NCBI GenBank assembly: GCA_011620345.1
Contig: WOZJ01000057.1
Location: 165,246-229,245, forward strand
Length of the DNA stretch: 64,000 bases
Direction of reading: 5' to 3'
Source: Nitrospirota bacterium
GTDB lineage: Bacteria; UBA2233
Below the pieces are notes generated by a model. It had not been told where the DNA came from and made no database searches. It was given only the letters and a program-made list of their open reading frames with translations. Below, piece by piece: positions 6,826-22,251 of the stretch. The number at the start of each line of letters is the position of its first letter. Within the stretch, counting starts at the first letter, position 1. A program made the translations under genes and the position numbers.

Positions 6826-8682
6826 TCATGCCCCATTAGGATTCGCAACGTGGAAGAGGGCTGTCTTTAAGGTTCCTCCAAAGGCATGGCATTGGTTGCA
6901 GAGTGCGGGGGCGTTGTGCTCCTTCTTGTCCACATGGCAGGCTAGGCACGTGTCCCTCGAGGACAGCTTCCAGTTATGGGGCTTGTGGCAATCGGTGCAA
7001 GCGGCGCTGGGATGGCCGCCAGCGGCATGGAGCCCTCCTAGGCCAGTATGACAACCTTTGCAGTCGTTCTGCGGTTGGCGAGCTCCTGCGAGCTGATGGC
7101 AAGTCCCGCAATCGCCGGACATCATGGGCGCGCGCTTATTCAGCTTGTGGCATTCTGCACAGTCGATCGGCGGCCGGTAGCCAGCAGCATGGCATTGGTT
7201 GCAGAGAATTTCTTTGTGACGACCTTCCAAGGGAATTGGGTGCCAGGACATGTCACTCTTGGGAAAGGTACCGGCCAAGGGGGTAAAAGGCCCACGTTCA
7301 GGCATGGTATGGCAAGCGGTGCATTCATTGGTTACAACCTTTCCTTCTGAGGAGACGTGCTTGCCGTCGTGGCAACGGAAGCATCCAGGCCAGTTCCTGT
7401 GGCCAATGTTCATGGCGTAGGTTTTCCAGTTGACGTTCATGGCTGGAAAGACAGAGCGGTCGTAAATCCCGGAAATGGCCCGGACGGAAGCATTTAGATC
7501 CGCCTTGCGGTATTGGAAGACGGTTGGATAGTTTTCTTTGTAAAACCCCTCGATCGCTCGAGCCATGCGAGTGTGTGCATCGCTGCGGTCCTTGTAGGAA
7601 GCTACGAGCGTGTCCACCGCAAGCTTTTTCATCCACGGAAGGTCTTTGGGGATGATGCCGCCGACCAGTGCCTCGTCTACAGCCTGGTCAGGGGCCAAGA
7701 AAATGTGCGTTGGGCGGTTGTGGCAATCCATGCAATCCATGGTGTGGCGTGGAACGGCCTCTAACTGCTCTTTGGAGAGTTTCGTGTTTTTATCGGTGTA
7801 TGTCGTGATTCTCCCTGTTCTGTTGTCCTTTACGCGGACCCAAGGGATTTTCTGAAAGTGACGGTCTTCTGCGGCAAAGGTAACCTGGTTCTCGATAACC
7901 ATGTGCCAATGAACCCCAGAGTTTATCCCGAGGTTTGGGCTTCCTCCGCCCGTTTTCACGAGCAGGCTGACCTGTTCGGCCGTATTCTTCTCGTCGTAGC
8001 GAAAATGTGGGATTTGGAGCATCCGTGCCCCGTAGAACTTTTGCGGCCAGTGGCATTCTTCGCATGTTTCGCGTGCCGGGCGCAGGTTGGCAACGGGAAC
8101 GGGAATTGGTCGCTCGTAGCTGTTGGTTAATACGGCCCATACTTGTCGCATTCCCGAAAGCTTCGAGCGAACGTACCAGGAAGCGCCAGCTCCCACATGG
8201 CAATCCACGCAGCGAACACGGGCGTGGGGCGAATAAAGGTATGCGGTGTGTTCGGGTTCCATGACAGTATGGCATACCTTGCCGCAAAAGGTAACGGACT
8301 CCGTAAAAAGGAAGGCGTTGTAGCCTGCAAAGGCTAAAAGAAGGAAGAGGATAGAGCTTGCGGCCAACGCAAGTGCGAATTTTCTCCTATGGCTAGGGTC
8401 ATTCAAATCGAGCCTGGGGAATGGGGGCGCTTCTGTGATTCCAAGCCTACGCCTTCGGAGGCTTTCAAGGGCCATGCCAAACAGGAAAAGGGCTAGGCCA
8501 AGCGTAAGGATGCCTGGGAACACCATGTACGTAAAGATGCCTATGTACGGGCTGGAAGGCGCTAACCCTATCCCCCACAGGGCGCTTCCTAGGATGAACA
8601 AGGCGCTGATAGCGATAATGAAAGCGCCAAAGTAGCTCACGGTGTTCTTATACAACCCTACGCTACTGGAGCGTTCCCCCAC
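6826..8682 (-). CDS. Membrane-anchored NapC/NirT-type multiheme cytochrome c (12 CxxCH + 1 CX3CH)
   Basis: Three N-terminal TM helices; FCGKVCH, SPHARVRCVDCH NapC-like core; extended C-terminal heme array. Confidence 0.9.
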   Translation of the reverse strand: MGERSSSVGLYKNTVSYFGAFIIAISALFILGSALWGIGLAPSSPYIGIFTYMVFPGILTLGLALFLFGMALESLRRRRLGITEAPPFPRLDLNDPSHRRKFALALAASSILFLLLAFAGYNAFLFTESVTFCGKVCHTVMEPEHTAYLYSPHARVRCVDCHVGAGASWYVRSKLSGMRQVWAVLTNSYERPIPVPVANLRPARETCEECHWPQKFYGARMLQIPHFRYDEKNTAEQVSLLVKTGGGSPNLGINSGVHWHMVIENQVTFAAEDRHFQKIPWVRVKDNRTGRITTYTDKNTKLSKEQLEAVPRHTMDCMDCHNRPTHIFLAPDQAVDEALVGGIIPKDLPWMKKLAVDTLVASYKDRSDAHTRMARAIEGFYKENYPTVFQYRKADLNASVRAISGIYDRSVFPAMNVNWKTYAMNIGHRNWPGCFRCHDGKHVSSEGKVVTNECTACHTMPERGPFTPLAGTFPKSDMSWHPIPLEGRHKEILCNQCHAAGYRPPIDCAECHKLNKRAPMMSGDCGTCHQLAGARQPQNDCKGCHTGLGGLHAAGGHPSAACTDCHKPHNWKLSSRDTCLACHVDKKEHNAPALCNQCHAFGGTLKTALFHVANPNGA

Positions 8683-9009: not shown

Positions 9010-9435
9010 CTAAGGCCTTGCAGCTGCCGCCTGTGAGATCCCCTTGACAGTCATCGTCCCATCCGGCTGGACGCTGTGGCAATCCTGGCAGCGGCCGCCG
9101 TAGAACATGACAAAGTGGTTGTTTTCTCCCAAAAGGTGTCCTTGATGGAGAACTTTATAGAACTCTGGTGCGGCCGACCCGTTGTGACAAGCTTGCATGC
9201 ATTGGGTAGGGGTGTTGCCCATGTTGGAGTCTACCTGGGGGTGCCTACCTTCTCTTTGCATTAAAACCATCATTGCGGGCAAGGAAAAGAGCGATGTGAC
9301 CCCTTGTGGGGTATGGCAAGTCAGGCAGACAACGTCCTGATCGGCGGCCTTGGCTTTTGAAAGGCCGAAGCCAGGTACCGCTACCATGCCTATTAGGCCA
9401 AGCCCAAGAAAGGAAAGCGCCGTTTTCTTTTTCAT
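9010..9435 (-). CDS. Small periplasmic triheme-type cytochrome c
   Basis: Signal peptide; CLTCH, CMQACH (CX3CH), CQDCH plus extra His; strong SD AGGAGGGG. Confidence 0.85.
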   Translation of the reverse strand: MKKKTALSFLGLGLIGMVAVPGFGLSKAKAADQDVVCLTCHTPQGVTSLFSLPAMMVLMQREGRHPQVDSNMGNTPTQCMQACHNGSAAPEFYKVLHQGHLLGENNHFVMFYGGRCQDCHSVQPDGTMTVKGISQAAAARP

Positions 9436-12262: not shown

Positions 12263-13246
12263 ATGAATGTTCTTTTTGAGTCTTTCTTGCACGCGATCGT
12301 GGATGCCGTCCTTGTAGGGGTCGGGCTTCGGGTATGGGGGATTGCCAAGGCAGAGCCCAGACAACGCTTCATGTCCCTTATTTTAATCCTTCCCGTCTCG
12401 ACGCCAATTCTTTTTTATGGGTGGAGTACGGAGGGGAGCTTGCCTGGTTTTTATCGTGGAGCCCTCTTTAATGGTGAGAGATGGCTCCACGTAGAGCTAT
12501 TAGGCATTCCTTTCTTTCGATGGGGGTTTTTCGTGTTAATGGGGGCTTGTGCGGCCGCCTTCTTGTTCCAAGAGCTTTTGCCTATCTACTGGCACTTCAG
12601 ACAATCGAAACGCATGCGAAGGTTGCTTAAGGACCATTGGGAGAAAATAATCCCCCTGGAAACGCTAGGCATCCCCCCTATAAAAGAGCTCGAGGGGTTG
12701 CGCATTCAAGTGTTGCCGGACCATTGGGGTGGCATTAGCTCTCTCTACGGAGGTTCGCCCAGAATTCTGATAGGGGAAGGGCTGCTTGAAGAGCTTGACC
12801 GAGAGGAGCTTCGTGCGGTTGTGGCGCACGAAATCGCCCATCTTGGCATAGGGCGCAGGCCTTTTATGCTCCTAATGTATGTGTTTCGAGCGATTGCTTT
12901 CTTAAACCCAGTCGCGCTTGGTGCGTTTCGGTTCATCGCTAACGAAGAAGAGTGCGTGTGCGATGACAGGGCGGTGTGGCTGACTTCTGTCAGCCCACTA
13001 GCCTTGGCAAGCGCCCTTAAAAAACTCTACCAGCCCGATCAAGAGCCCGAGCTTGCGGACTGTAGTAAACAGGAGGTGCCAGGACTGTTCCGGAACCTAT
13101 CTGCCGTGGGGCTAAGAGAGCAGCTTGACAAACGCATCGAAAGGCTTCGTTCCAGAACCTACTCCTCGGACGACACTGAGTATTGGTCAGAGCTGTTTAT
13201 CGTGACGCTTGGGTGCCTGGCGTTTTCTTTTGCCGTTGTGGGCTAA
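12263..13246 (+). CDS. Membrane zinc metalloprotease, M56 (BlaR1-like)/M48 family
   Basis: TM segments; ELRAVVAHEIAH (HExxH), FLNPV, EEECVCDDRAV, LASALKK. Confidence 0.85.
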   Translation: MNVLFESFLHAIVDAVLVGVGLRVWGIAKAEPRQRFMSLILILPVSTPILFYGWSTEGSLPGFYRGALFNGERWLHVELLGIPFFRWGFFVLMGACAAAFLFQELLPIYWHFRQSKRMRRLLKDHWEKIIPLETLGIPPIKELEGLRIQVLPDHWGGISSLYGGSPRILIGEGLLEELDREELRAVVAHEIAHLGIGRRPFMLLMYVFRAIAFLNPVALGAFRFIANEEECVCDDRAVWLTSVSPLALASALKKLYQPDQEPELADCSKQEVPGLFRNLSAVGLREQLDKRIERLRSRTYSSDDTEYWSELFIVTLGCLAFSFAVVG

Positions 13247-13249
13247 AAA

Positions 13250-13774
13250 ATGGGTCGATTGAAGGGTCTCCTTTGTTTTTGTATGTTCGGCGTCTTGTTT
13301 GCTGGAGCACTGTGGATCCTGAACGCTGTCCCTCTTTTGCTCAAGCAGGAAGGTTTCAGGTCCTTAAAAAACATTGGGGAAACGCAAGCCTACCTAGGCA
13401 CAAGGCTTTCACTTCCCCGTTATTTTTCTCCCGGGCTTGTTTGGCCACCGTGTGCAATCCTAGCCCAACGAAAGCCGTTTCCCGCCTACGTTGTCCAATT
13501 TCAAAAAAGGGGGAGGGACGGGGTTTCGTTGGTCCTTTCGATGTCACCCGCTAGACACCCGCTATCCGGGGTCCACATCGAGCCCGCCATGGGCTTGCGT
13601 CGCATGCGTGTCAAGCTTACAGACCAAAGCGCGGAGTTGATGATAGGTCGCCTTCGCTCTGGGGAGCGTTGTTGCCTGCTTTCTTGGGTGCAGGCTGCCA
13701 AGAGATGGACGTTAAGCGGGGTGTTGCCCCCTTCCGAGATCCTGAAGATGGCCGAGAGTATGGACTTGCCTTAA
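13250..13774 (+). CDS. Hypothetical membrane-anchored protein
   Basis: N-terminal TM helix; starts 3 bp after the protease stop. Confidence 0.65.
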   Translation: MGRLKGLLCFCMFGVLFAGALWILNAVPLLLKQEGFRSLKNIGETQAYLGTRLSLPRYFSPGLVWPPCAILAQRKPFPAYVVQFQKRGRDGVSLVLSMSPARHPLSGVHIEPAMGLRRMRVKLTDQSAELMIGRLRSGERCCLLSWVQAAKRWTLSGVLPPSEILKMAESMDLP

Positions 13775-16066: not shown

Positions 16067-17854
16067 GTGCACCTCCCCCAATTAACTCGCCGCATCCTCC
16101 TGCTCGTTATCGCAAGCCTTCTGCCGCTCGTTCTGGGCTATGCCCTGATCCTTGCCGCTTCGGTCCGGTATGGCAATCAAGGTGCGCTACGATTTACGCA
16201 GACCAGGGCAAGGATTCTTTCCGAATCGGTTAAGCTCCATTTGGAGAAAAACCTCGTTTGGCTCTCGGACATCGCGCTCGGTCTTTCTTTTGGCGAGCCC
16301 GCCAAGGAGACCCTTAGACAGTCAAACCCCTACTCGTTGCTCCGTCATGGGTTGATCGTCACCGATCTAGAGGGGAACGTCAGGGCCTCATGGCCGGAAA
16401 CAAGCATTCGCAAGCTTGCCCCGGAAGTGCTGGCTAGGTTGAAGGAGGAAGGTTCCCCGAGCAGACCTTTCGTATCCGGCCTCGTGGCCAAAGAGCCCTC
16501 GGGCCGAACCACAGGCTTTATGCTCGCGCCGGTACGCGAGAGCGCCGGCAAGATTAAGGGTTGGGTGGGAGGAGAGTTGGACTTCCAAGACCCTGTTTTC
16601 GTTCGGCTTCTTGAAGCAGGCAGAGAGCCTTCAGACAACTTCGTCGCAATTTTAGACGATGCCGGTCGGGCTTTTGCGTTTATAGGAGACTCTAGGGCCT
16701 TTCTCGTTAAAGGGCATGCTGGACTGATTAACCAGGCCCGCTACGATGAGAGCCCTCGGACTGTTCGCTGCAAAGGGTGTCACAAGAAAGGCGCTCGTGG
16801 GGGCGTGTTGGCCGTTGCTTCCGTTACGCTCGCCCCTTGGTGCGTCGCGATCTTAACCGTACCGAATGGTCCATCGGGTTCTCCGCTTGGCCTGTGGAAG
16901 GCCTTTGGGCTTTTGGGATTGGGATTGTCGCTGGGTGGACTTATTCTTGGCGTGGGGATGTCCCGCTCGATTCTTCAGCCTATACGCTCACTGATCGAAG
17001 GGGCAAAAAGGATCGGGGACGGTGATCTCTCCATCCCCGTCCCCATCCAAGGAAGCGACGAGATTACGGTTTTGGCGGAAGGATTGGAGCAAACCCGGCT
17101 TAGGCTCCTCGAGTCGTTTCTAACGATCCAACGGGTTAATGAAGAGCTCGAGGCCAAGGTTCAAGAGAGGACCATGCAGGTGCAGTCGCTCTTAAGGAAG
17201 GTCATCGGCTCCCAAGAGGAGGAGCGGAAGCGAATTGCACGCGAGTTACACGACGTAGTCTTGCAGGACATCGCCGCATTTTTGATGAAGCTAGACGTGC
17301 TCGCGTTGAGCGAGCGCAAGGATCAAGGACGAATCGAGAAGATGCGCGGGCTTTTGACCAAAGCGATGGAGGATATTCGTGCCATCATTCAGGGCTTGCG
17401 TCCGAGTATTCTTGATGATTTGGGGTTGGATGAGGCCCTAAGGTGGGTTGTGGACCGAAGGTTTCAGGATCAGGAATGCGAGGTCTCGATTGAGGTCAAG
17501 GGCTATTCTAAGGGGCAGTTGGACTCAAACATAGAAACTGTTACGTTCCGGATTGCCCAAGAGGCCCTCACCAATGTCCTTAAGCATGCAAGAGCGAGCC
17601 GCGCTGTCCTCCGGCTGAGTTGTTCGAGTCGTAGGCTTACCCTTTTCGTTCATGATAACGGGGTAGGGTTCGCGGCCGCCGAGTACAAGAAAGAGGTCCG
17701 TACGACGGTCGGGTCGGGCATTGGGCTCCAGGGTATGGCAGAAAGGGCCTCGCTTGTCGGGGGGAGGCTCAAGATCCGGTCATCTCCGGGTAGAGGGTCC
17801 CATGTGCGGCTATTCATCCCTTTAGGGAGGTCAGTAGATGAAACAGCCGATTAG
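16067..17854 (+). CDS. Sensor histidine kinase (periplasmic Cache-like domain, HAMP, HisKA_3) with a CxxCH motif
   Basis: EEERKRIARELHD, QEALTNVLKHA, DNGVGF, GIGLQGMAER; CKGCH before TM2. Confidence 0.93.
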   Translation: MHLPQLTRRILLLVIASLLPLVLGYALILAASVRYGNQGALRFTQTRARILSESVKLHLEKNLVWLSDIALGLSFGEPAKETLRQSNPYSLLRHGLIVTDLEGNVRASWPETSIRKLAPEVLARLKEEGSPSRPFVSGLVAKEPSGRTTGFMLAPVRESAGKIKGWVGGELDFQDPVFVRLLEAGREPSDNFVAILDDAGRAFAFIGDSRAFLVKGHAGLINQARYDESPRTVRCKGCHKKGARGGVLAVASVTLAPWCVAILTVPNGPSGSPLGLWKAFGLLGLGLSLGGLILGVGMSRSILQPIRSLIEGAKRIGDGDLSIPVPIQGSDEITVLAEGLEQTRLRLLESFLTIQRVNEELEAKVQERTMQVQSLLRKVIGSQEEERKRIARELHDVVLQDIAAFLMKLDVLALSERKDQGRIEKMRGLLTKAMEDIRAIIQGLRPSILDDLGLDEALRWVVDRRFQDQECEVSIEVKGYSKGQLDSNIETVTFRIAQEALTNVLKHARASRAVLRLSCSSRRLTLFVHDNGVGFAAAEYKKEVRTTVGSGIGLQGMAERASLVGGRLKIRSSPGRGSHVRLFIPLGRSVDETAD

Positions 17855-18497
17855 GGTTTTAATCGTGGACGATCATGCACTCTTACGTGAGGGCATTGCG
17901 GCCATCCTTCAGACGGCCGAGGACATCCGAGTTGTGGGCGAGGCGGCTGACGGGCTTGAAGCGATTAAAAAGGTTGAAGTGTTGCACCCCTCGATCGTTC
18001 TTATGGACATAGCCATGCCCGGGCTTGGCGGGCTCGAGGCGACGCTAGAGATTAAAAAACTGTTCCCGGGGGTTCGGGTGCTCGTGCTTACCCAGTACGA
18101 CGACAAAGAGTACGTTGACAGGTTTCTCAAGGCAGGCGCTTCTGGTTTTATCCTTAAGCGTGCGCTGGGTAGGGAGCTCATCGATGCGGTTCGGTCCGTC
18201 GATAAGGATGAGGTTTATCTCCATCCAGCAATCGTCAAGGACGTAGTCGAAGGATATTTAACGAAGGACAAGCCCGCTGCTTCTCCCTATGACAGGCTTA
18301 CAGATAGGGAGAAACAAGTCCTCAAATTGCTTGCAGAGGGGCATACTCACAAAGAAGCGGCGAGCCTGCTGGGAATTGGCGTGAAAACCGTTATTACCCA
18401 CCAGGCTCACCTCCAAGAAAAGCTTGGGCTCTCTAGCCGTTCCGAACTGATCCGGTTCGCCATCCAGCAAAAAATCATCCGAATCGACACTCCGTAA
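17838..18497 (+). CDS. NarL/LuxR-family response regulator
   Basis: VLIVDDH, LMDIAMP, LTDREKQVLKLLAEG HTH. Confidence 0.95.
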   Translation: MKQPIRVLIVDDHALLREGIAAILQTAEDIRVVGEAADGLEAIKKVEVLHPSIVLMDIAMPGLGGLEATLEIKKLFPGVRVLVLTQYDDKEYVDRFLKAGASGFILKRALGRELIDAVRSVDKDEVYLHPAIVKDVVEGYLTKDKPAASPYDRLTDREKQVLKLLAEGHTHKEAASLLGIGVKTVITHQAHLQEKLGLSSRSELIRFAIQQKIIRIDTP

Positions 18498-18550
18498 TTA
18501 GCCTTCCGGGCACGAGCCCAAAGCCCTCACGTCTCTCGATCGCTCCTTCC

Positions 18551-18739
18551 TTACTGAACCTTCGGCGCTGTGGGAGCTCCGCTCTTGGGCGGACACTTGG
18601 CAATTTTGTCATCACCATGGCATTTCATCCCGCACCCGGGCTTGGCATTCCCACACATGTTGGGCTTTGCCAGAAGGGGAGCGCTAAGAATGCAGAGCGC
18701 CACGAATGCCGAGGATAAACAAAGGGCTGCGCGCTTCAT
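18551..18739 (-). CDS. Secreted Cys-rich mini-protein, paralog 1 (C-X6-C-X3-CH-X7-C)
   Basis: SD GGAGG; Sec-type signal ending LLA; mature KPNMCGNAKPGCGMKCHGDDKIAKCP... Confidence 0.85.
   Translation of the reverse strand: MKRAALCLSSAFVALCILSAPLLAKPNMCGNAKPGCGMKCHGDDKIAKCPPKSGAPTAPKVQ
18554..18625 (-). repeat. 72-bp direct repeat, copy 1 (69/72 identical to 20208-20279)
   Basis: Manual alignment; encodes the identical C-terminal 24 aa of paralogs 1 and 3. Confidence 0.9.
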
Positions 18740-18812
18740 GCAATACCTCCTTTTTTGGTTGTGTTGTTGACCTCCAAGAATAACTTCCACCGCCATTTCT
18801 CTTTTTTCAAGG

Positions 18813-18821
18813 AGTATACCA
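18813..18821 (-). promoter_or_regulatory. Extended -10 element TGGTATACT upstream of paralog 1
   Basis: Identical 9-mer lies 73 bp upstream of the ATG here and at paralog 3. Confidence 0.6.
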
Positions 18822-19012
18822 AGAATAGTCACAAAAGTGAAGGGCCTTTTATGCCATTAGGAAAGAAACCATGAAACTATACCATAAGGATCTAATGAGG
18901 ATATATTGTACATTCCATGCGAACAAATCATATTATTGCAGGGTTGCATTCTCGTTATTTTTGCTTTAAAATTCCATTGAGTTCAACATTCAACCCCAAA
19001 AGGAGGGAGCCT

Positions 19013-19246
19013 ATGAAAAAGCTCGCGTTTCTTACGGCTGCGGGGTATTTCGCCCTTGCATTTCTCTTTGCACCCGGTGTGTGGGCAAGGTCCAGCATGT
19101 GTGGGCAGGCAAAGCCCGGGTGTGGGGGGAGTTGCCACGGCGACGACAAGGTGCAGAAGTGCCCCAAAAAGAAATCTGGTGCTCTACAGCAATTCTTCGG
19201 CCTGGATGGCTTGGAGTCTGGCTTGAGTAAGAGCTTGCTTCAATAA
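19013..19246 (+). CDS. Secreted Cys-rich mini-protein, paralog 2, with Leu-rich tail
   Basis: SD AGGAGG; signal ending VWA; MCGQAKPGCGGSCHGDDKVQKCP. Confidence 0.85.
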   Translation: MKKLAFLTAAGYFALAFLFAPGVWARSSMCGQAKPGCGGSCHGDDKVQKCPKKKSGALQQFFGLDGLESGLSKSLLQ

Positions 19247-19269
19247 CCCAACAAAAGAAGGAGGTTGCG

Positions 19270-19461
19270 ATGAAACGCCTTCAGATTGGAATCCTAAGCA
19301 TTGCCGTACTCTGCGGCTTCGGGATGTTTTTGGGCTCGCAGGCCTTTGCTTCAGGCGGGCTGACGGTTACCGGGTGTCCTTGCCATGGGGCCATGAAAAC
19401 TCAGGTTCAGCAGCCGAGCATGGATGGCCTGCTCAAGGCTCTCCTTGGAAACGCCAAGTAG
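19270..19461 (+). CDS. Secreted mini-protein with CPCH (CxCH) motif
   Basis: SD AGGAGGT; signal ending AFA; GCPCHG; tail DGLLKALLGNAK. Confidence 0.8.
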   Translation: MKRLQIGILSIAVLCGFGMFLGSQAFASGGLTVTGCPCHGAMKTQVQQPSMDGLLKALLGNAK

Positions 19462-19492
19462 CGGGAAATAAACCATAAAGGGAGGAGACGGC

Positions 19493-19774
19493 ATGTCGAG
19501 CAAAAAGGCTATTGCAATAGGAGTAATGGCGGGCCTGATGGGGAGTGCGGCGTTAGCTAGCAACGCGTTTGCCATTGCGCAGACCGGGCTTCTGGGTACG
19601 CTCTCCGGTCCACTCATGCAACCTTTGGTTGCCTGGGGTTGTGCACACACTTGCCACGAGAGCGAGGTTTTCCCGGATGTCGTTGCCCATAACGCTGGCC
19701 TTTTGAAGGCCCCGGTCAGCGGCCAGGCCTCTCAAGAAGCTCTCCTAAAAGCGCTTCTTGGGCAAGCACAATAA
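19493..19774 (+). CDS. Secreted mini-protein with CAHTCH (CX3CH) motif
   Basis: SD GGAGGAG; signal ending AFA; tail EALLKALLGQAQ. Confidence 0.8.
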   Translation: MSSKKAIAIGVMAGLMGSAALASNAFAIAQTGLLGTLSGPLMQPLVAWGCAHTCHESEVFPDVVAHNAGLLKAPVSGQASQEALLKALLGQAQ

Positions 19775-19799
19775 ATACAAACCAAGAAGGGGTAGGAGC

Positions 19800-20084
19800 A
19801 TGAAAAAGCTTGGACGTTTATCCATTGCCGGTATTTTAGGAGTAGGGCTAATGGCCACTCCTTTGTGGGCTTCGGGAACGGTAAGGCCGTTGCAGTCCGT
19901 AGGTAACATCTGCGGGCTCTACATGTGTCATCCGATGATTGAATCCGTAACCTCATTGGGAGGAAACGTTTTGGGTTCTATGGGACTTTTCTCCATGCTC
20001 GAAAACTGGGAAACAGTCGGCATGGGCTCGCCCTACTACAAGGCAGACGTCCAGCGAACGTTGCGCTATAGCCCAGAGCGTTAG
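19800..20084 (+). CDS. Secreted mini-protein with CGLYMCH (CX4CH) motif
   Basis: Purine-rich SD; signal MKKLGR...PLWA; last gene before a palindromic terminator. Confidence 0.78.
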   Translation: MKKLGRLSIAGILGVGLMATPLWASGTVRPLQSVGNICGLYMCHPMIESVTSLGGNVLGSMGLFSMLENWETVGMGSPYYKADVQRTLRYSPER

Positions 20085-20118
20085 CCCTGTTTGAGCAAGG
20101 CGTTGTTTGCTCTAAGCC

Positions 20119-20154
20119 AATCAAGCCCTGGCCTTTAAAGGCCAGGGCTTGATT
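20119..20154 (+). terminator. Perfect 36-bp palindrome followed by a T-run; terminator of the mini-protein operon
   Basis: AATCAAGCCCTGGCCTTT|AAAGGCCAGGGCTTGATT then TTT. Confidence 0.8.
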
Positions 20155-20204
20155 TTTAAGGGGTAAAGCTCCGACAGGATAAATTACTTACCCTGTCGTC
20201 CTTA

Positions 20205-20393
20205 CTACTGAACCTTCGGCGCTGTGGGAGCTCCACTCTTGGGCGGGCACTTGGCAATTTTGTCATCACCGTGGCATTTCCCGGCGCATCCAGGCTTGGC
20301 TTGCGGACACATGGCAGGGCGGGCCATCAAGGGGGCGGTGAAAATCCCTAGCGCAACGAGCGCCGCGGACACCCCAAAAACTGTGCGCTTCAT
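20205..20393 (-). CDS. Secreted Cys-rich mini-protein, paralog 3
   Basis: SD AGGAGGAG; signal ending LMA; RPAMCPQAKPGCAGKCHGDDKIAKCP; tandem TAG TAA stops. Confidence 0.85.
   Translation of the reverse strand: MKRTVFGVSAALVALGIFTAPLMARPAMCPQAKPGCAGKCHGDDKIAKCPPKSGAPTAPKVQ
20208..20279 (-). repeat. 72-bp direct repeat, copy 2
   Basis: Matches 18554-18625 with 3 synonymous differences. Confidence 0.9.
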
Positions 20394-20466
20394 AAAGCTC
20401 CTCCTTTTCGTTTGTGTTGCCGGCTTTCATTGAAGCCTTGCATGCTAAGCGCAACATGCGCTCCAA

Positions 20467-20475
20467 AGTATACCA
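20467..20475 (-). promoter_or_regulatory. Extended -10 element TGGTATACT upstream of paralog 3
   Basis: Same 9-mer and same spacing to the ATG as at paralog 1. Confidence 0.6.
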
Positions 20476-20757
20476 AAAAAATTGAGAACATATACTCCAT
20501 CAACGGCGCCCTTGCGTGTCTCGGGCTATGCATCCATCAGGAAGCCGTACTGCACCTGTCGGCAGGAGTCTTGGTATCGAGCATGCCAGGTATAGGCTTT
20601 GATCGTAGAGTCAGCCCTTAATGGATGGTATCGAAAGCGTTCATGGTGTGCTTTTACTCAGAAACTATGGCCACCGGATGATCGTTTGCTGGGATTTTTT
20701 GGACGCTTCCCCTTCCCGTAGCCTTGGGATTGGACTATAGTAAAAGAAACAACTTGA

Positions 20758-22251
20758 GTGAGGCGTTTTGTGGAGGGAAACGAGAGGTATCCTGTAGCGC
20801 TTACCTTTGATGATATCTTGCTTCTGCCGGGAGAATCGGACTTTGTTCCTGCAGAAGCCGACGTGCGCACAAGGGTTTCCAGGGCTATTCCGCTCCATAT
20901 CCCCGTCCTTTCGGCCGCGATGGATACCGTGACCGAGGCGGCAACGGCTATTGCGATGGCCAAGGAGGGTGGGCTTGGCATTATCCACAGGAACATGCCG
21001 ATCGATAGGCAGGCCAAGGAGGTGGAGCGGGTCAAAAAGTCCGAATCGTGGATGATCGTCGACCCGGTTACGCTCAAGCCTGAAGCAACACTCTTAGAGG
21101 CGATCGAGATCATGGACCGCCACAAGATCTCGGGTGTACCAGTGACCCGCTCCGGGAAGTTAGTGGGGATTCTTACCCATAGAGACCTACGCTTTGTGCG
21201 CGACCTGGACCGTCCAGTCGATACAGCAATGACCAAGGATGTGGTTAGCGCCAACGAGGCTACCACGCTAGAGCAGGCGATGGATATTCTACAGGCGCAC
21301 AAAGTGGAAAAACTTCCCGTTGTAGACCCTCAGGGCAATTTAAAGGGCTTGATTACGGCCAAGGACATTCAAAAGGCGAAAGAGGCACCGTTTGCGCTAA
21401 AAGATGCATTCGGAAGGTTACGGGTGGGGGCGGCCGTAGGCGTGGGAGATATTGCCATCGAGAGGGCCCAGGCCGTGATTAAGGCAGGTTGCGACATGGT
21501 TGCGATCGATACGGCGCATGGCCACTCCAAGGCCGTTCGCGATACCCTCATGCAAATCAAGCGCTCTTTCCCGAAAGTTCCAGTTCTTGCGGGTAACGTA
21601 GCGACGTCCGAAGGGGCGAGGTTTTTGATCGAGGCTGGCGCGGATGCGATCAAGGTGGGCGTAGGCCCTGGTTCGATTTGCACAACCCGTGTCATTGCGG
21701 GCGTTGGCGTCCCGCAGTTGAGCGCAGTGCTCGCGTGCGCGAAGGTAACGCGGGATGCAGGGGTGCCGCTGATCGCGGACGGAGGGATCAAATACTCTGG
21801 CGATGTGATCAAGGCGTTGGCCGCGGGTGCAGACGCCGTAATGATTGGCAATTTGTTCGCCGGTACGGACGAAAGCCCCGGAGATTTAGTTCTTTATCGG
21901 GGAAGGGCCTACAAAGTCTACAGGGGAATGGGCTCGATCGAGGCCATGAAAGAAGGCTCGGCGGACAGGTATTTCCAGGCTTCAGGGCCATCCGATCAGG
22001 CCAAGTTTGTCCCAGAGGGGATTGAAGGGCGCGTTCCGCTTAGAGGGCCCCTCAAGTTTGTCCTTCAGCAGCTTGTGGGAGGGCTTAAATCTGGAATGGG
22101 CTACGTGGGGGCAAGGACGCTCGACGAGCTAAGGCGCAAAGCAAAAATGGTTCGTATTTCTCCCCAAGGGCTAAGGGAGAGCCACGTCCACGACGTGGTC
22201 GTCACGCGCGAGGCCCCGAACTACCCTCTTTCCGAATCAATGCTTGATTAG
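20758..22251 (+). CDS. guaB: IMP dehydrogenase
   Basis: [16 protein letters not shown] pair, [17 protein letters not shown]. Confidence 0.98.

What the first reader, a model, noticed from the sequence alone, without database searches (positions are those of the whole stretch)
18551..20393. Array of six secreted mini-proteins, each with one non-canonical heme-type motif (candidate new micro-cytochrome/heme-peptide system)
Seen: six ORFs of 62-94 aa, all with purine-rich SD sites, A/C-rich leaders and Sec-type signal peptides. Each mature part has exactly one Cys-Xn-Cys-His: CGMKCH, CGGSCH, CPCH, CAHTCH, CGLYMCH, CAGKCH. So n = 1, 3 or 4 and never the canonical 2. A four-gene operon is bracketed by two opposite-strand paralogs, next to a heme-motif kinase and large cytochromes. 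Established: CX3CH and CX4CH can carry heme c, and CxxCH-based annotation would miss all six. Inference: ~36-70-aa heme peptides resembling natural microperoxidases, acting as shuttles, ligand scavengers or polymer subunits. An alternative is secreted Cys-based metal-binding peptides or RiPPs modified in trans.
Basis: partly seen in the sequence, partly recalled or inferred. Interest (0 to 1): 0.9.

Follow-up and report, generated by a model that had tools for sequence, protein, structure and literature searches.

The report
Seven secreted mini-proteins, probable heme peptides
A bacterium of an almost unstudied phylum carries a cluster of real, conserved genes for tiny secreted proteins whose only shared feature is a cysteine-cysteine-histidine motif of the kind that holds heme, so they may be the smallest natural cytochromes, though no experiment has shown heme yet.

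Summary
Six short genes (62-94 aa) lie at 18551-20393. Each has a strong ribosome-binding site and a Sec-type signal peptide, and each mature part has one Cys-Xn-Cys-His (n = 1, 3 or 4). I found a seventh paralog on another contig, downstream of a TolC-like gene.

The genes are real. Relatives keep frame and length, metagenome variants are mostly synonymous, and the four-gene operon ends in a 16-bp terminator hairpin.

No Pfam, NCBIfam or PDB family covers them. A profile search of 1.84 billion representative proteins gave 13 hits, 11 of them true.

The His after the second Cys is kept in every relative seen. ORFs 1, 2, 6 and the seventh copy share C-x4-PGC-x3-CH-x7-CP. One relative adds a canonical CXXCH and another adds a second CX3CH.

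The genome has a System I* heme-attachment machinery with a Cys-type CcmE. It also uses CX3CH at the first-heme position of its NapC/NirT-type cytochrome. It has no MNIO enzyme and no extra heme lyase.

Best reading (about 0.5): minimal periplasmic c-type heme peptides, possibly controlled by the adjacent heme-motif sensor kinase. Covalent heme is unproven. Metal-binding or signalling peptides remain live rivals. This is a new variant of a known kind.

The parts
18551..18739 (-). O1, 62 aa, family A mini-protein (signal peptide, then C-x5-C-x3-CH-x7-CP; motif CGMKCH)
   Evidence: cluster P0004 seen on 7 contigs
18813..18841 (-). promoter-like site upstream of O1 (TTCACT-17-TG-TATACT); its box is duplicated upstream of O6 at 20467-20488
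   Evidence: a consensus match only
18907..18936 (+). promoter-like site upstream of the O2-O5 operon
   Evidence: a consensus match only
19013..19246 (+). O2, 77 aa, family A mini-protein with a C-terminal FFGLDGLESGL tail (motif CGGSCH)
   Evidence: P0014, P0005
19270..19461 (+). O3, 63 aa, mini-protein with the contracted CPCH motif and a C-terminal LLKALLG tail
   Evidence: 7 variants; changes lie only in the signal peptide and the first mature residues
19493..19774 (+). O4, 93 aa, mini-protein with CAHTCH and a C-terminal LLKALLG tail
19800..20084 (+). O5, 94 aa, mini-protein with CGLYMCH
20119..20159 (+). intrinsic terminator of the O2-O5 operon (16-bp perfect stem, 4-nt loop, U-run)
20205..20393 (-). 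O6, 62 aa, family A mini-protein (CAGKCH), duplicate of O1
16067..17854 (+). sensor histidine kinase (HAMP, HisKA_3, HATPase_c) with CKGCH in its periplasmic part; candidate regulator, link inferred from adjacency only
17838..18497 (+). NarL/LuxR-type response regulator, overlaps the kinase gene

Best explanation
The seven genes encode one divergent family of minimal periplasmic c-type heme proteins. The proposed steps are these. (1) The Sec system exports the precursor and signal peptidase I cleaves it, leaving chains of about 36-70 residues (38 for O1 and O6). This is inferred from the sequence. (2) The genome's System I* machinery (CcmABC, Cys-type CcmE, CcmF) links the two heme vinyls to the two Cys of G-C-Xn-C-H, and the His becomes the proximal iron ligand. 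This is inferred. (3) In family A (O1, O2, O6 and the C34 copy) the invariant Cys-Pro eight residues after the His may supply a thiolate distal ligand, giving a low-potential His/Cys heme. In the two-motif relatives each heme motif is followed by its own Cys-Pro. This step is speculative. (4) The C-terminal amphipathic tails (LLKALLG, GLxGLxxL) may cover the exposed heme face or dock the peptide. This is also speculative. Function: small diffusible periplasmic electron carriers, redox buffers or ligand/peroxide scavengers that serve the adjacent multiheme-cytochrome/cytochrome-b complexes. They are probably expressed under the neighbouring heme-motif sensor kinase and NarL-type regulator. Both the function and the regulation are inferred from adjacency only.
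For: The genes are real. They have strong SD sites and signal peptides. Frame and length are conserved in relatives down to 34-64% identity. Of the 40 variant sites shown out of 122, 22 lie in the six ORFs: 14 are synonymous and 8 are not, and two of those 8 share one codon. The seven O3 variants change only the signal peptide and the first mature residues. The only feature shared by all subfamilies is G-C-Xn-C-H. In family A, C, PGC, CH and CP are invariant in 14 of 14 sequences. GC[AS]H[ST]CHESE is kept in 5 of 5 O4 relatives, and ICGxYMCHPM in 4 of 4 O5 relatives. hhalign puts the O4 motif on the family-A motif over 21 columns (E 6.6e-4, but probability only 27%). Relative P0024/P0036 carries a canonical CGNCH right after the family core, and P0021 carries a second CX3CH. 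The genome has CcmC, CcmF and a CcmE with CPSRY. It has 19 ORFs with two or more CXXCH motifs, 98 motifs in all. Its NapC/NirT-type cytochrome has CGKVCH right after its membrane helix, where the family's first heme motif sits by my recall. A small neighbouring cytochrome has CMQACH between two CXXCH. From the literature, passages only: CKCH binds heme in a Kuenenia tetraheme protein (PMC7096707). CX3CH and CX4CH are listed as heme motifs (PMC11492766). [quoted passage not shown] System I* works without CcmG/H (PMC3601427). The context is redox: multiheme cytochromes, cytochrome b and a kinase with CKGCH lie directly upstream. The only distant homolog whose context I could read sits beside a ferredoxin-like protein and a di-heme C_GCAxxG_C_C protein.
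Against: There is no direct evidence of heme. There is no match to any cytochrome family or solved structure. AlphaFold gave no fold (pLDDT 55.8 and 42.8). No conserved distal His or Met is evident: the Met before Cys1 varies (Y, F, L, D) and the second His of O4 is R in P0009. Four conserved Cys plus His in family A would also suit a metal site. The precedent for the CX1CH motif comes from an organism that, by my recall, uses System II, not System I. The homology of O3-O5 to family A rests on a weak profile match. All O3 homologs are at least 90% identical, so conservation of CPCH is weakly tested. One metagenome homolog has an in-frame TAA at the first heme Cys.
Confidence: 0.5

Rival explanations
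1. Periplasmic Cys/His metal-binding mini-proteins (chaperones, buffers or metallothionein-like sinks for Cu, Zn, Hg or another thiophilic metal). The two to four Cys and the His chelate the metal directly.
For: Family A has four invariant Cys plus one His within 22 residues. Variable Cys spacing is easily tolerated by a flexible chelating loop. The seventh copy lies directly downstream of a TolC-like outer-membrane channel gene in two genomes, a setting seen for efflux systems. There is a sub-threshold MerE hit on the CPC region of O3 (12.6 bits against a cut-off of 80).
Against: No metal-resistance genes (P-type ATPase, RND/MFP, MerR/CsoR-type regulator) were seen in the flanks examined. O3-O5 keep only Cys-Xn-Cys-His. 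That His sits immediately after the second Cys in all four subfamilies, which is the heme c signature rather than a usual metal site. Relatives add a canonical CXXCH. In a cell with an active Ccm system, exported CXnCH peptides are expected to receive heme (passages in PMC3884852 and PMC4158909).
Confidence: 0.2
2. Secreted disulfide-stabilised signalling or antimicrobial peptides, sensed by or co-regulated with the adjacent two-component system.
For: A small-peptide array beside a kinase/regulator pair resembles peptide-pheromone and bacteriocin loci. The paralog array appears to rearrange. O1 and O6 are a duplication, there is an O2/O5 chimera P0020, and one contig carries a joint across the repeat. 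Paralog pairs seem to recur in other organisms, judged only from equal contig lengths (P0027+P0033 at 2402 nt; P0021+P0036 at 1752 nt).
Against: There is no immunity, ABC-exporter or processing gene in the cluster. O3-O5 have only two Cys, separated by 1-4 residues, which are poor disulfide rings. The invariant His is not explained. The kinase and regulator look like the tail of the cytochrome operon rather than a peptide-sensing module (gene order).
Confidence: 0.1
3. Non-covalent heme-binding peptides (periplasmic heme buffer or chaperone) that use Cys-Pro heme-regulatory-type motifs plus His.
For: Cys-Pro is invariant at the fourth Cys, frequent at the first Cys, and present inside the CPCH of O3. 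That Cys-Pro is a transient heme ligand motif is my recall, not a call.
Against: O4 and O5 have no Cys-Pro. With CcmF present, a Cys-Xn-Cys-His segment is more likely to be thioether-linked. None of the genes examined in the flanks was a heme-uptake gene.
Confidence: 0.07
4. Precursors of ribosomally made, post-translationally modified peptides with Sec leaders (bufferin-like), in which enzymes encoded elsewhere modify the Cys residues.
For: Sec signal plus conserved Cys is the bufferin layout (recalled). The peptides have no predicted fold.
Against: The 96.8%-complete genome has no MbnB/TglH/ChrH (MNIO, PF05114) gene, and the control genome did ring. There is no match to bufferin or HvfA-type models in Pfam or NCBIfam. 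No maturase lies within about 10 kb on either side.
Confidence: 0.03

Closest known systems
c-type cytochromes with non-canonical heme motifs: CX3CH and CX4CH (for example in Desulfovibrio-type c3, recalled) and the contracted CKCH of the Kuenenia stuttgartiensis tetraheme protein (Ferousi et al. 2019; seen only as cited in passages of PMC7096707 and PMC11492766)
   Same: Exported proteins with Cys-Xn-Cys-His, n = 1, 3 or 4. The host has a cytochrome c maturation system. The same genome uses CX3CH in a NapC/NirT-type cytochrome.
   Different: Those motifs sit as single sites inside larger multiheme folds. Here they are the only motif of 36-70-residue chains with no detectable cytochrome domain. 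No canonical CXXCH occurs in any of the seven copies.
Microperoxidases (proteolytic heme peptides of cytochrome c) and the biosynthetic microperoxidases made in E. coli by Sec export plus Ccm (Braun and Thony-Meyer 2004; seen only as cited in a passage of PMC3884852)
   Same: A short exported peptide whose only required feature is the heme-attachment motif. Size is in the range of tens of residues.
   Different: Those are artificial or degradation products. These would be genome-encoded, conserved and multiplied to seven copies, with extra conserved residues (PG before Cys2, Cys-Pro after His) and C-terminal tails.
Small monoheme and oligoheme periplasmic carriers (class I c-type cytochromes of about 70-110 aa, c7/c3 of about 70-110 aa; sizes recalled). 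This genome has class-I-like ones on contig C51.
   Same: Sec-exported soluble periplasmic proteins, encoded beside respiratory complexes.
   Different: No sequence or profile similarity. About half the size. Non-canonical motif only.
Bufferins and other MNIO-modified Sec-exported Cys peptides (recalled)
   Same: Sec signal peptide, small size, conserved Cys.
   Different: No MNIO gene in the genome, no family match, and the invariant His directly after Cys is not a bufferin feature.

Membership tests
c-type cytochrome (covalent heme c protein) | Export to the periplasm as an unfolded precursor (Sec signal peptide) | tested here: met
   All seven copies pass a heuristic n-region/h-region/AxA filter. 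SignalP was not available.
c-type cytochrome (covalent heme c protein) | Cys-Xn-Cys-His attachment motif, conserved among homologs | tested here: met
   Conserved in 14 of 14, 5 of 5, 4 of 4 and 7 of 7. n = 1, 3 or 4, never 2.
c-type cytochrome (covalent heme c protein) | Host encodes a cytochrome c maturation system able to handle the motif | tested here: met
   CcmC, CcmF and a CxxxY CcmE are present. CX3CH and CX4CH occur inside the genome's multiheme cytochromes. Handling of CX1CH by System I* is not shown.
c-type cytochrome (covalent heme c protein) | Two thioether bonds to heme (heme stain, +616 Da, pyridine hemochrome) | not testable with these tools
   Needs expression and spectroscopy or mass spectrometry.
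c-type cytochrome (covalent heme c protein) | Similarity to a known cytochrome c domain or fold | tested here: not met
   Pfam: 0 of 6 with any hit at E<=10. NCBIfam: only two sub-threshold chance hits. PDB profile search: 0 hits at E<=10. AF2 models have pLDDT 55.8 and 42.8.
Bufferin / MNIO-modified RiPP | MNIO (DUF692, PF05114) enzyme gene beside the precursor or elsewhere in the genome | tested here: not met
   0 matches in the 96.8%-complete genome; the control Caulobacter genome rang.
Bufferin / MNIO-modified RiPP | Precursor matches the bufferin or HvfA precursor families | tested here: not met
   No Pfam or NCBIfam hit.
Periplasmic metal chaperone or metallothionein-like peptide | Stoichiometric metal binding; metal-resistance gene context | tested here: inconclusive
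   No metal-resistance genes in the flanks examined. One copy lies next to a TolC-like gene. Binding itself is not testable here.

The most novel reading that the evidence does not exclude
These are natural, genome-encoded microperoxidase-like heme peptides. They would be the smallest c-type cytochromes known (mature chains of about 36-38 residues for O1, O3 and O6). They would use only non-canonical CX1CH, CX3CH and CX4CH attachment sites. Family A would have His/Cys(-Pro) ligation. They are multiplied to seven copies and switched by a heme-sensing two-component system, acting as a tunable set of periplasmic redox shuttles or ligand/peroxide scavengers.
Probability: 0.4. Interest if true: 0.8.

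Novelty: new variant of a known kind. Interest (0 to 1): 0.62.

Why it matters
If heme is attached, these peptides set a new lower size limit for natural cytochromes. They would also show that System I* matures CX1CH, CX3CH and CX4CH sites on free peptides. They would give ready-made minimal scaffolds for heme-peptide catalysts. And they would show that CXXCH-based cytochrome counting misses a whole class of redox proteins in uncultured anaerobes. Even if they bind a metal instead, this is an unannotated, conserved, multiplied family of secreted mini-proteins in a phylum (UBA2233) that the paper library mentions in only two papers.

Tried and rejected
- **Structure prediction.** The family-A alignment (14 rows) gave pLDDT 55.8 with only the signal-peptide helix. 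O5 (4 rows) gave 42.8. No fold search was worth running.
- **Complex prediction.** The mature O2+O3+O5+O4 job returned no answer (score 0.02). It says nothing either way.
- **ESM Atlas (O2).** The best feature score was 0.79 to unnamed clusters, and the structure rows were all under the bar. No lead.
- **Rfam on 18300-20800.** 0 matches at E<=1.
- **Expression.** No RNA holder is listed among 22 runs, so expression is untested.
- **Metagenome scan with the O4 alignment.** 48 pattern matches, 0 confirmed.
- **Metagenome scan with the family-A alignment.** 2 loci. One is the same species as the window (L031). The other is a distant homolog with an internal TAA (L032).
- **Species-representative genome scan.** Only the UBA2233 congener was found.
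- **Search of 40 other genomes with O6.** Nothing better than E 0.0089, apart from the congener G001.
- **G001 synteny.** G001 could not serve as a synteny check. It lacks the kinase and guaB as well, so the region is unassembled there.
- **Spurious own-genome hit.** The weak hit on C15 overlaps an rnc-like gene in another frame and is spurious.
- **False positives in the representative search.** P0022 (an LRR repeat protein) and P0023 (a low-complexity repeat) are false positives.
- **Selenocysteine idea for L032.** Rejected, because the stop is TAA, not TGA.
- **Extra heme lyase.** Rejected. The third PF01578 gene is the CcsA-like gene beside hemA.
- **Shared regulator sites.** An alignment of the upstream regions showed only the duplicated -10 box and A/C-rich leaders.
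- **Papers not held.** The primary papers of Ferousi 2019 and Braun & Thony-Meyer 2004 are not held, so I cite them only through passages in other papers. No supplements were consulted.
Full report
**What is there.** The interval 18551-20393 holds six short genes:

| ORF | Coordinates | Strand | Length |
|---|---|---|---|
| O1 | 18551-18739 | - | 62 aa |
| O2 | 19013-19246 | + | 77 aa |
| O3 | 19270-19461 | + | 63 aa |
| O4 | 19493-19774 | + | 93 aa |
| O5 | 19800-20084 | + | 94 aa |
| O6 | 20205-20393 | - | 62 aa |

Each ATG follows an AGGAGG-type site by 4-6 nt. Each product begins with a basic N-terminus, a hydrophobic core and an A-x-A-like cleavage site. O2-O5 are separated by 23-31 nt. 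They are followed by a perfect 16-bp hairpin with a U-run (-35.4 kcal/mol, z -5.4, 0 of 200 shuffles as stable), so they form one operon.

O1 and O6 are both on the minus strand. They are a 203-nt direct duplication (77% identical) whose promoter-like box is duplicated too. No Rfam family matches the region, and base composition is ordinary apart from the AT-rich divergent promoter region.

**Is it more than chance?** I scanned the whole 1.80-Mb genome for small ORFs with signal-peptide-like starts and found 428 distinct ORFs. Sixteen carry C-x0-6-CH in the mature part. Eight of these are canonical CXXCH, one is a doubtful CX6CH ORF, and seven are this family. The seventh member lies on contig C34 (L004:1453-1680, minus strand, 75 aa), 100 nt downstream of a TolC-like gene. 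The same pair is found in the congeneric genome G001 and in a metagenome contig of the same species.

**Are they genes?** Three lines of evidence say yes.
- Relatives keep frame and length. There are five for O6, five for O4 and three for O5.
- I laid contigs of four metagenome runs from four studies on the region. The output listed 40 of 122 variant sites. Of those 40, 22 lie in the six ORFs, with 14 synonymous and 8 not (two of the 8 share one codon). One is a synonymous site in the regulator gene and 17 are intergenic.
- The seven members of the O3 cluster differ only in the signal peptide and the first mature residues. The stretch from TGCPCH to the end is identical in 7 of 7.

No RNA run was listed, so expression itself is untested.

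**Family structure.** O1, O2, O6 and the C34 copy form family A. A profile of their mature parts was searched against 1,835,955,588 representative proteins. It gave 13 hits at E<=0.001. Two are false and 11 are family members or fragments.

In a 14-sequence alignment the invariant residues are Cys1, Pro-Gly-Cys2, Cys3-His and Cys4-Pro, which gives C-x4-PGC-x3-CH-x7-CP. Most members end in a GLxGLxxL-like tail, and O3 and O4 end in LLKALLG.

O4 relatives keep GC[AS]H[ST]CHESE in 5 of 5, down to 64% identity. O5 relatives keep ICGxYMCHPM in 4 of 4, down to 72%. hhalign places the O4 motif on the family-A motif over 21 columns (E 6.6e-4, probability 27%). That is suggestive of one superfamily whose only common core is G-C-Xn-C-H, but it is not proof.

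**No known family.**
- Pfam gave nothing for 6 of 6 at E<=10.
- NCBIfam gave only two sub-threshold chance hits.
- A profile search of PDB sequences gave 0 hits at E<=10.
- The ESM Atlas gave no usable lead.
- Earlier notes of this scan hold no look-alike.
- Among species-representative genomes, only the UBA2233 congener has a homolog.
- Among 40 other genomes nothing scored better than E 0.0089, apart from G001.

**Why heme c is the best reading.**
1. The Cys-Xn-Cys-His triad is the one thing conserved while everything else diverges, including the Cys spacing. This is how heme c sites behave.
2. Relatives multiply the motif the way multiheme cytochromes do. P0021 has two CX3CH. P0024/P0036 has CX3CH followed by a canonical CGNCH.
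3. The genome is a cytochrome-rich System I* organism. Nineteen ORFs have two or more CXXCH, 98 motifs in all.
4. This organism already uses the extended motif in bona fide cytochromes. The NapC/NirT-type protein at 6826-8682 has CGKVCH directly after its membrane helix. The 141-aa cytochrome at 9010-9435 has CMQACH between two CXXCH.
5. Literature, read as passages only. CKCH is a functional contracted motif (PMC7096707). CX3CH and CX4CH are listed as heme motifs (PMC11492766). System I attaches heme to short microperoxidase-like peptides and essentially recognises only the motif (PMC3884852, PMC4158909). System I* works without CcmG/H (PMC3601427). That E. coli Ccm matures CX3CH and CX4CH variants is my recall of Allen et al. 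2009, not a call.
6. The context is redox. A 13-heme protein, a cytochrome b, a kinase with CKGCH and a NarL-type regulator lie directly upstream on the same strand. The one distant homolog with readable context sits beside a ferredoxin-like protein and a di-heme C_GCAxxG_C_C protein.

**A further inference.** In the two-motif relatives each heme-type motif is followed by its own Cys-Pro. In family A the Cys-Pro lies eight residues after the His. This fits a thiolate distal ligand (His/Cys heme) better than an obligatory Cys1-Cys4 disulfide. It rests on two sequences and on recalled knowledge of Cys-Pro heme ligation.

**What argues against.**
- There is no direct evidence of heme.
- No cytochrome fold or domain is detectable. 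AlphaFold models are unconfident.
- No conserved distal His or Met is evident.
- Four Cys plus His would also suit a metal site.
- The TolC adjacency of the seventh copy hints at efflux or metal handling.
- CPCH conservation is tested only among sequences at least 90% identical.
- The link to the two-component system is adjacency alone.
- The RiPP rival is weak. There is no MNIO gene in the genome and no extra lyase or maturase. The third PF01578 gene is the hemA-linked CcsA-like gene. The flanks are cytochromes on one side and guaB, guaA, dnaE and hflX on the other.

**Verdict.** The heme-peptide interpretation is the best-supported one (about 0.5) but is unproven. Metal-binding peptides (0.2) and secreted signalling peptides (0.1) remain live. 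If they carry heme, this is a new variant of a known kind: c-type cytochromes reduced to a bare, non-canonical attachment motif. A simple heterologous maturation experiment would settle it.

Noticed in passing
L032:152-330 (metagenome contig, + strand): A distant family-A homolog (63% identity over the core) has an in-frame TAA exactly where the first heme-motif Cys (PG-C) should be. The rest of the frame and motif (GGKCHGDENIQKCP) is intact. It may be a recent pseudogene or an assembly error. It is not selenocysteine, because the codon is TAA. It sits upstream of a 4Fe-4S protein and a Tat-signal C_GCAxxG_C_C di-heme protein.
   Followed up: partly
window 18618 / 20271 (run X8) and protein P0020: One low-depth contig joins 20271 back to 18618, across the O1/O6 direct repeat (1654-nt spacing). 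A 47-aa database protein looks like an O2 N-part fused to the O5 C-end. The array may rearrange by recombination between paralogs, or these may be assembly artefacts.
   Followed up: no
window 18551-18640 vs 20205-20295: The 3' halves of O1 and O6 encode identical last 21 residues, while their 5' halves have diverged. This suggests recent gene conversion within the duplication.
   Followed up: no
window 6826-8682 (-) and 9010-9435 (-): The NapC/NirT-type 12-CXXCH cytochrome has CGKVCH (CX3CH) directly after its membrane helix, where by my recall the family's first heme motif sits. A 141-aa signal-peptide cytochrome upstream has CLTCH, CMQACH and CQDCH. CXXCH-only counting underestimates hemes in this genome.
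   Followed up: partly
window 16067-17854 (+): The histidine kinase (HAMP, HisKA_3, HATPase_c) has a CKGCH motif in its predicted periplasmic sensor part. It is the last-but-one gene of a cytochrome c / cytochrome b operon, so it is a candidate heme c redox or gas sensor.
   Followed up: no
window 12263-13774 (+): An M48/M56 (BlaR1-like) peptidase gene is followed by a 174-aa ORF with no Pfam match, lying between the two multiheme-cytochrome/cytochrome-b units.
   Followed up: no
L004:546-1172 (+) = G000 contig C34: A 208-aa ORF, extremely proline-rich and with no Pfam match, lies next to the seventh family member. It is conserved in G001 (L006:1946-2569).
   Followed up: no
G001 (congeneric genome): The congener lacks not only the peptide array but also the kinase and guaB by protein and DNA search. 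So a large part of this contig is missing from that 93%-complete assembly, and its absences are uninformative.
   Followed up: yes
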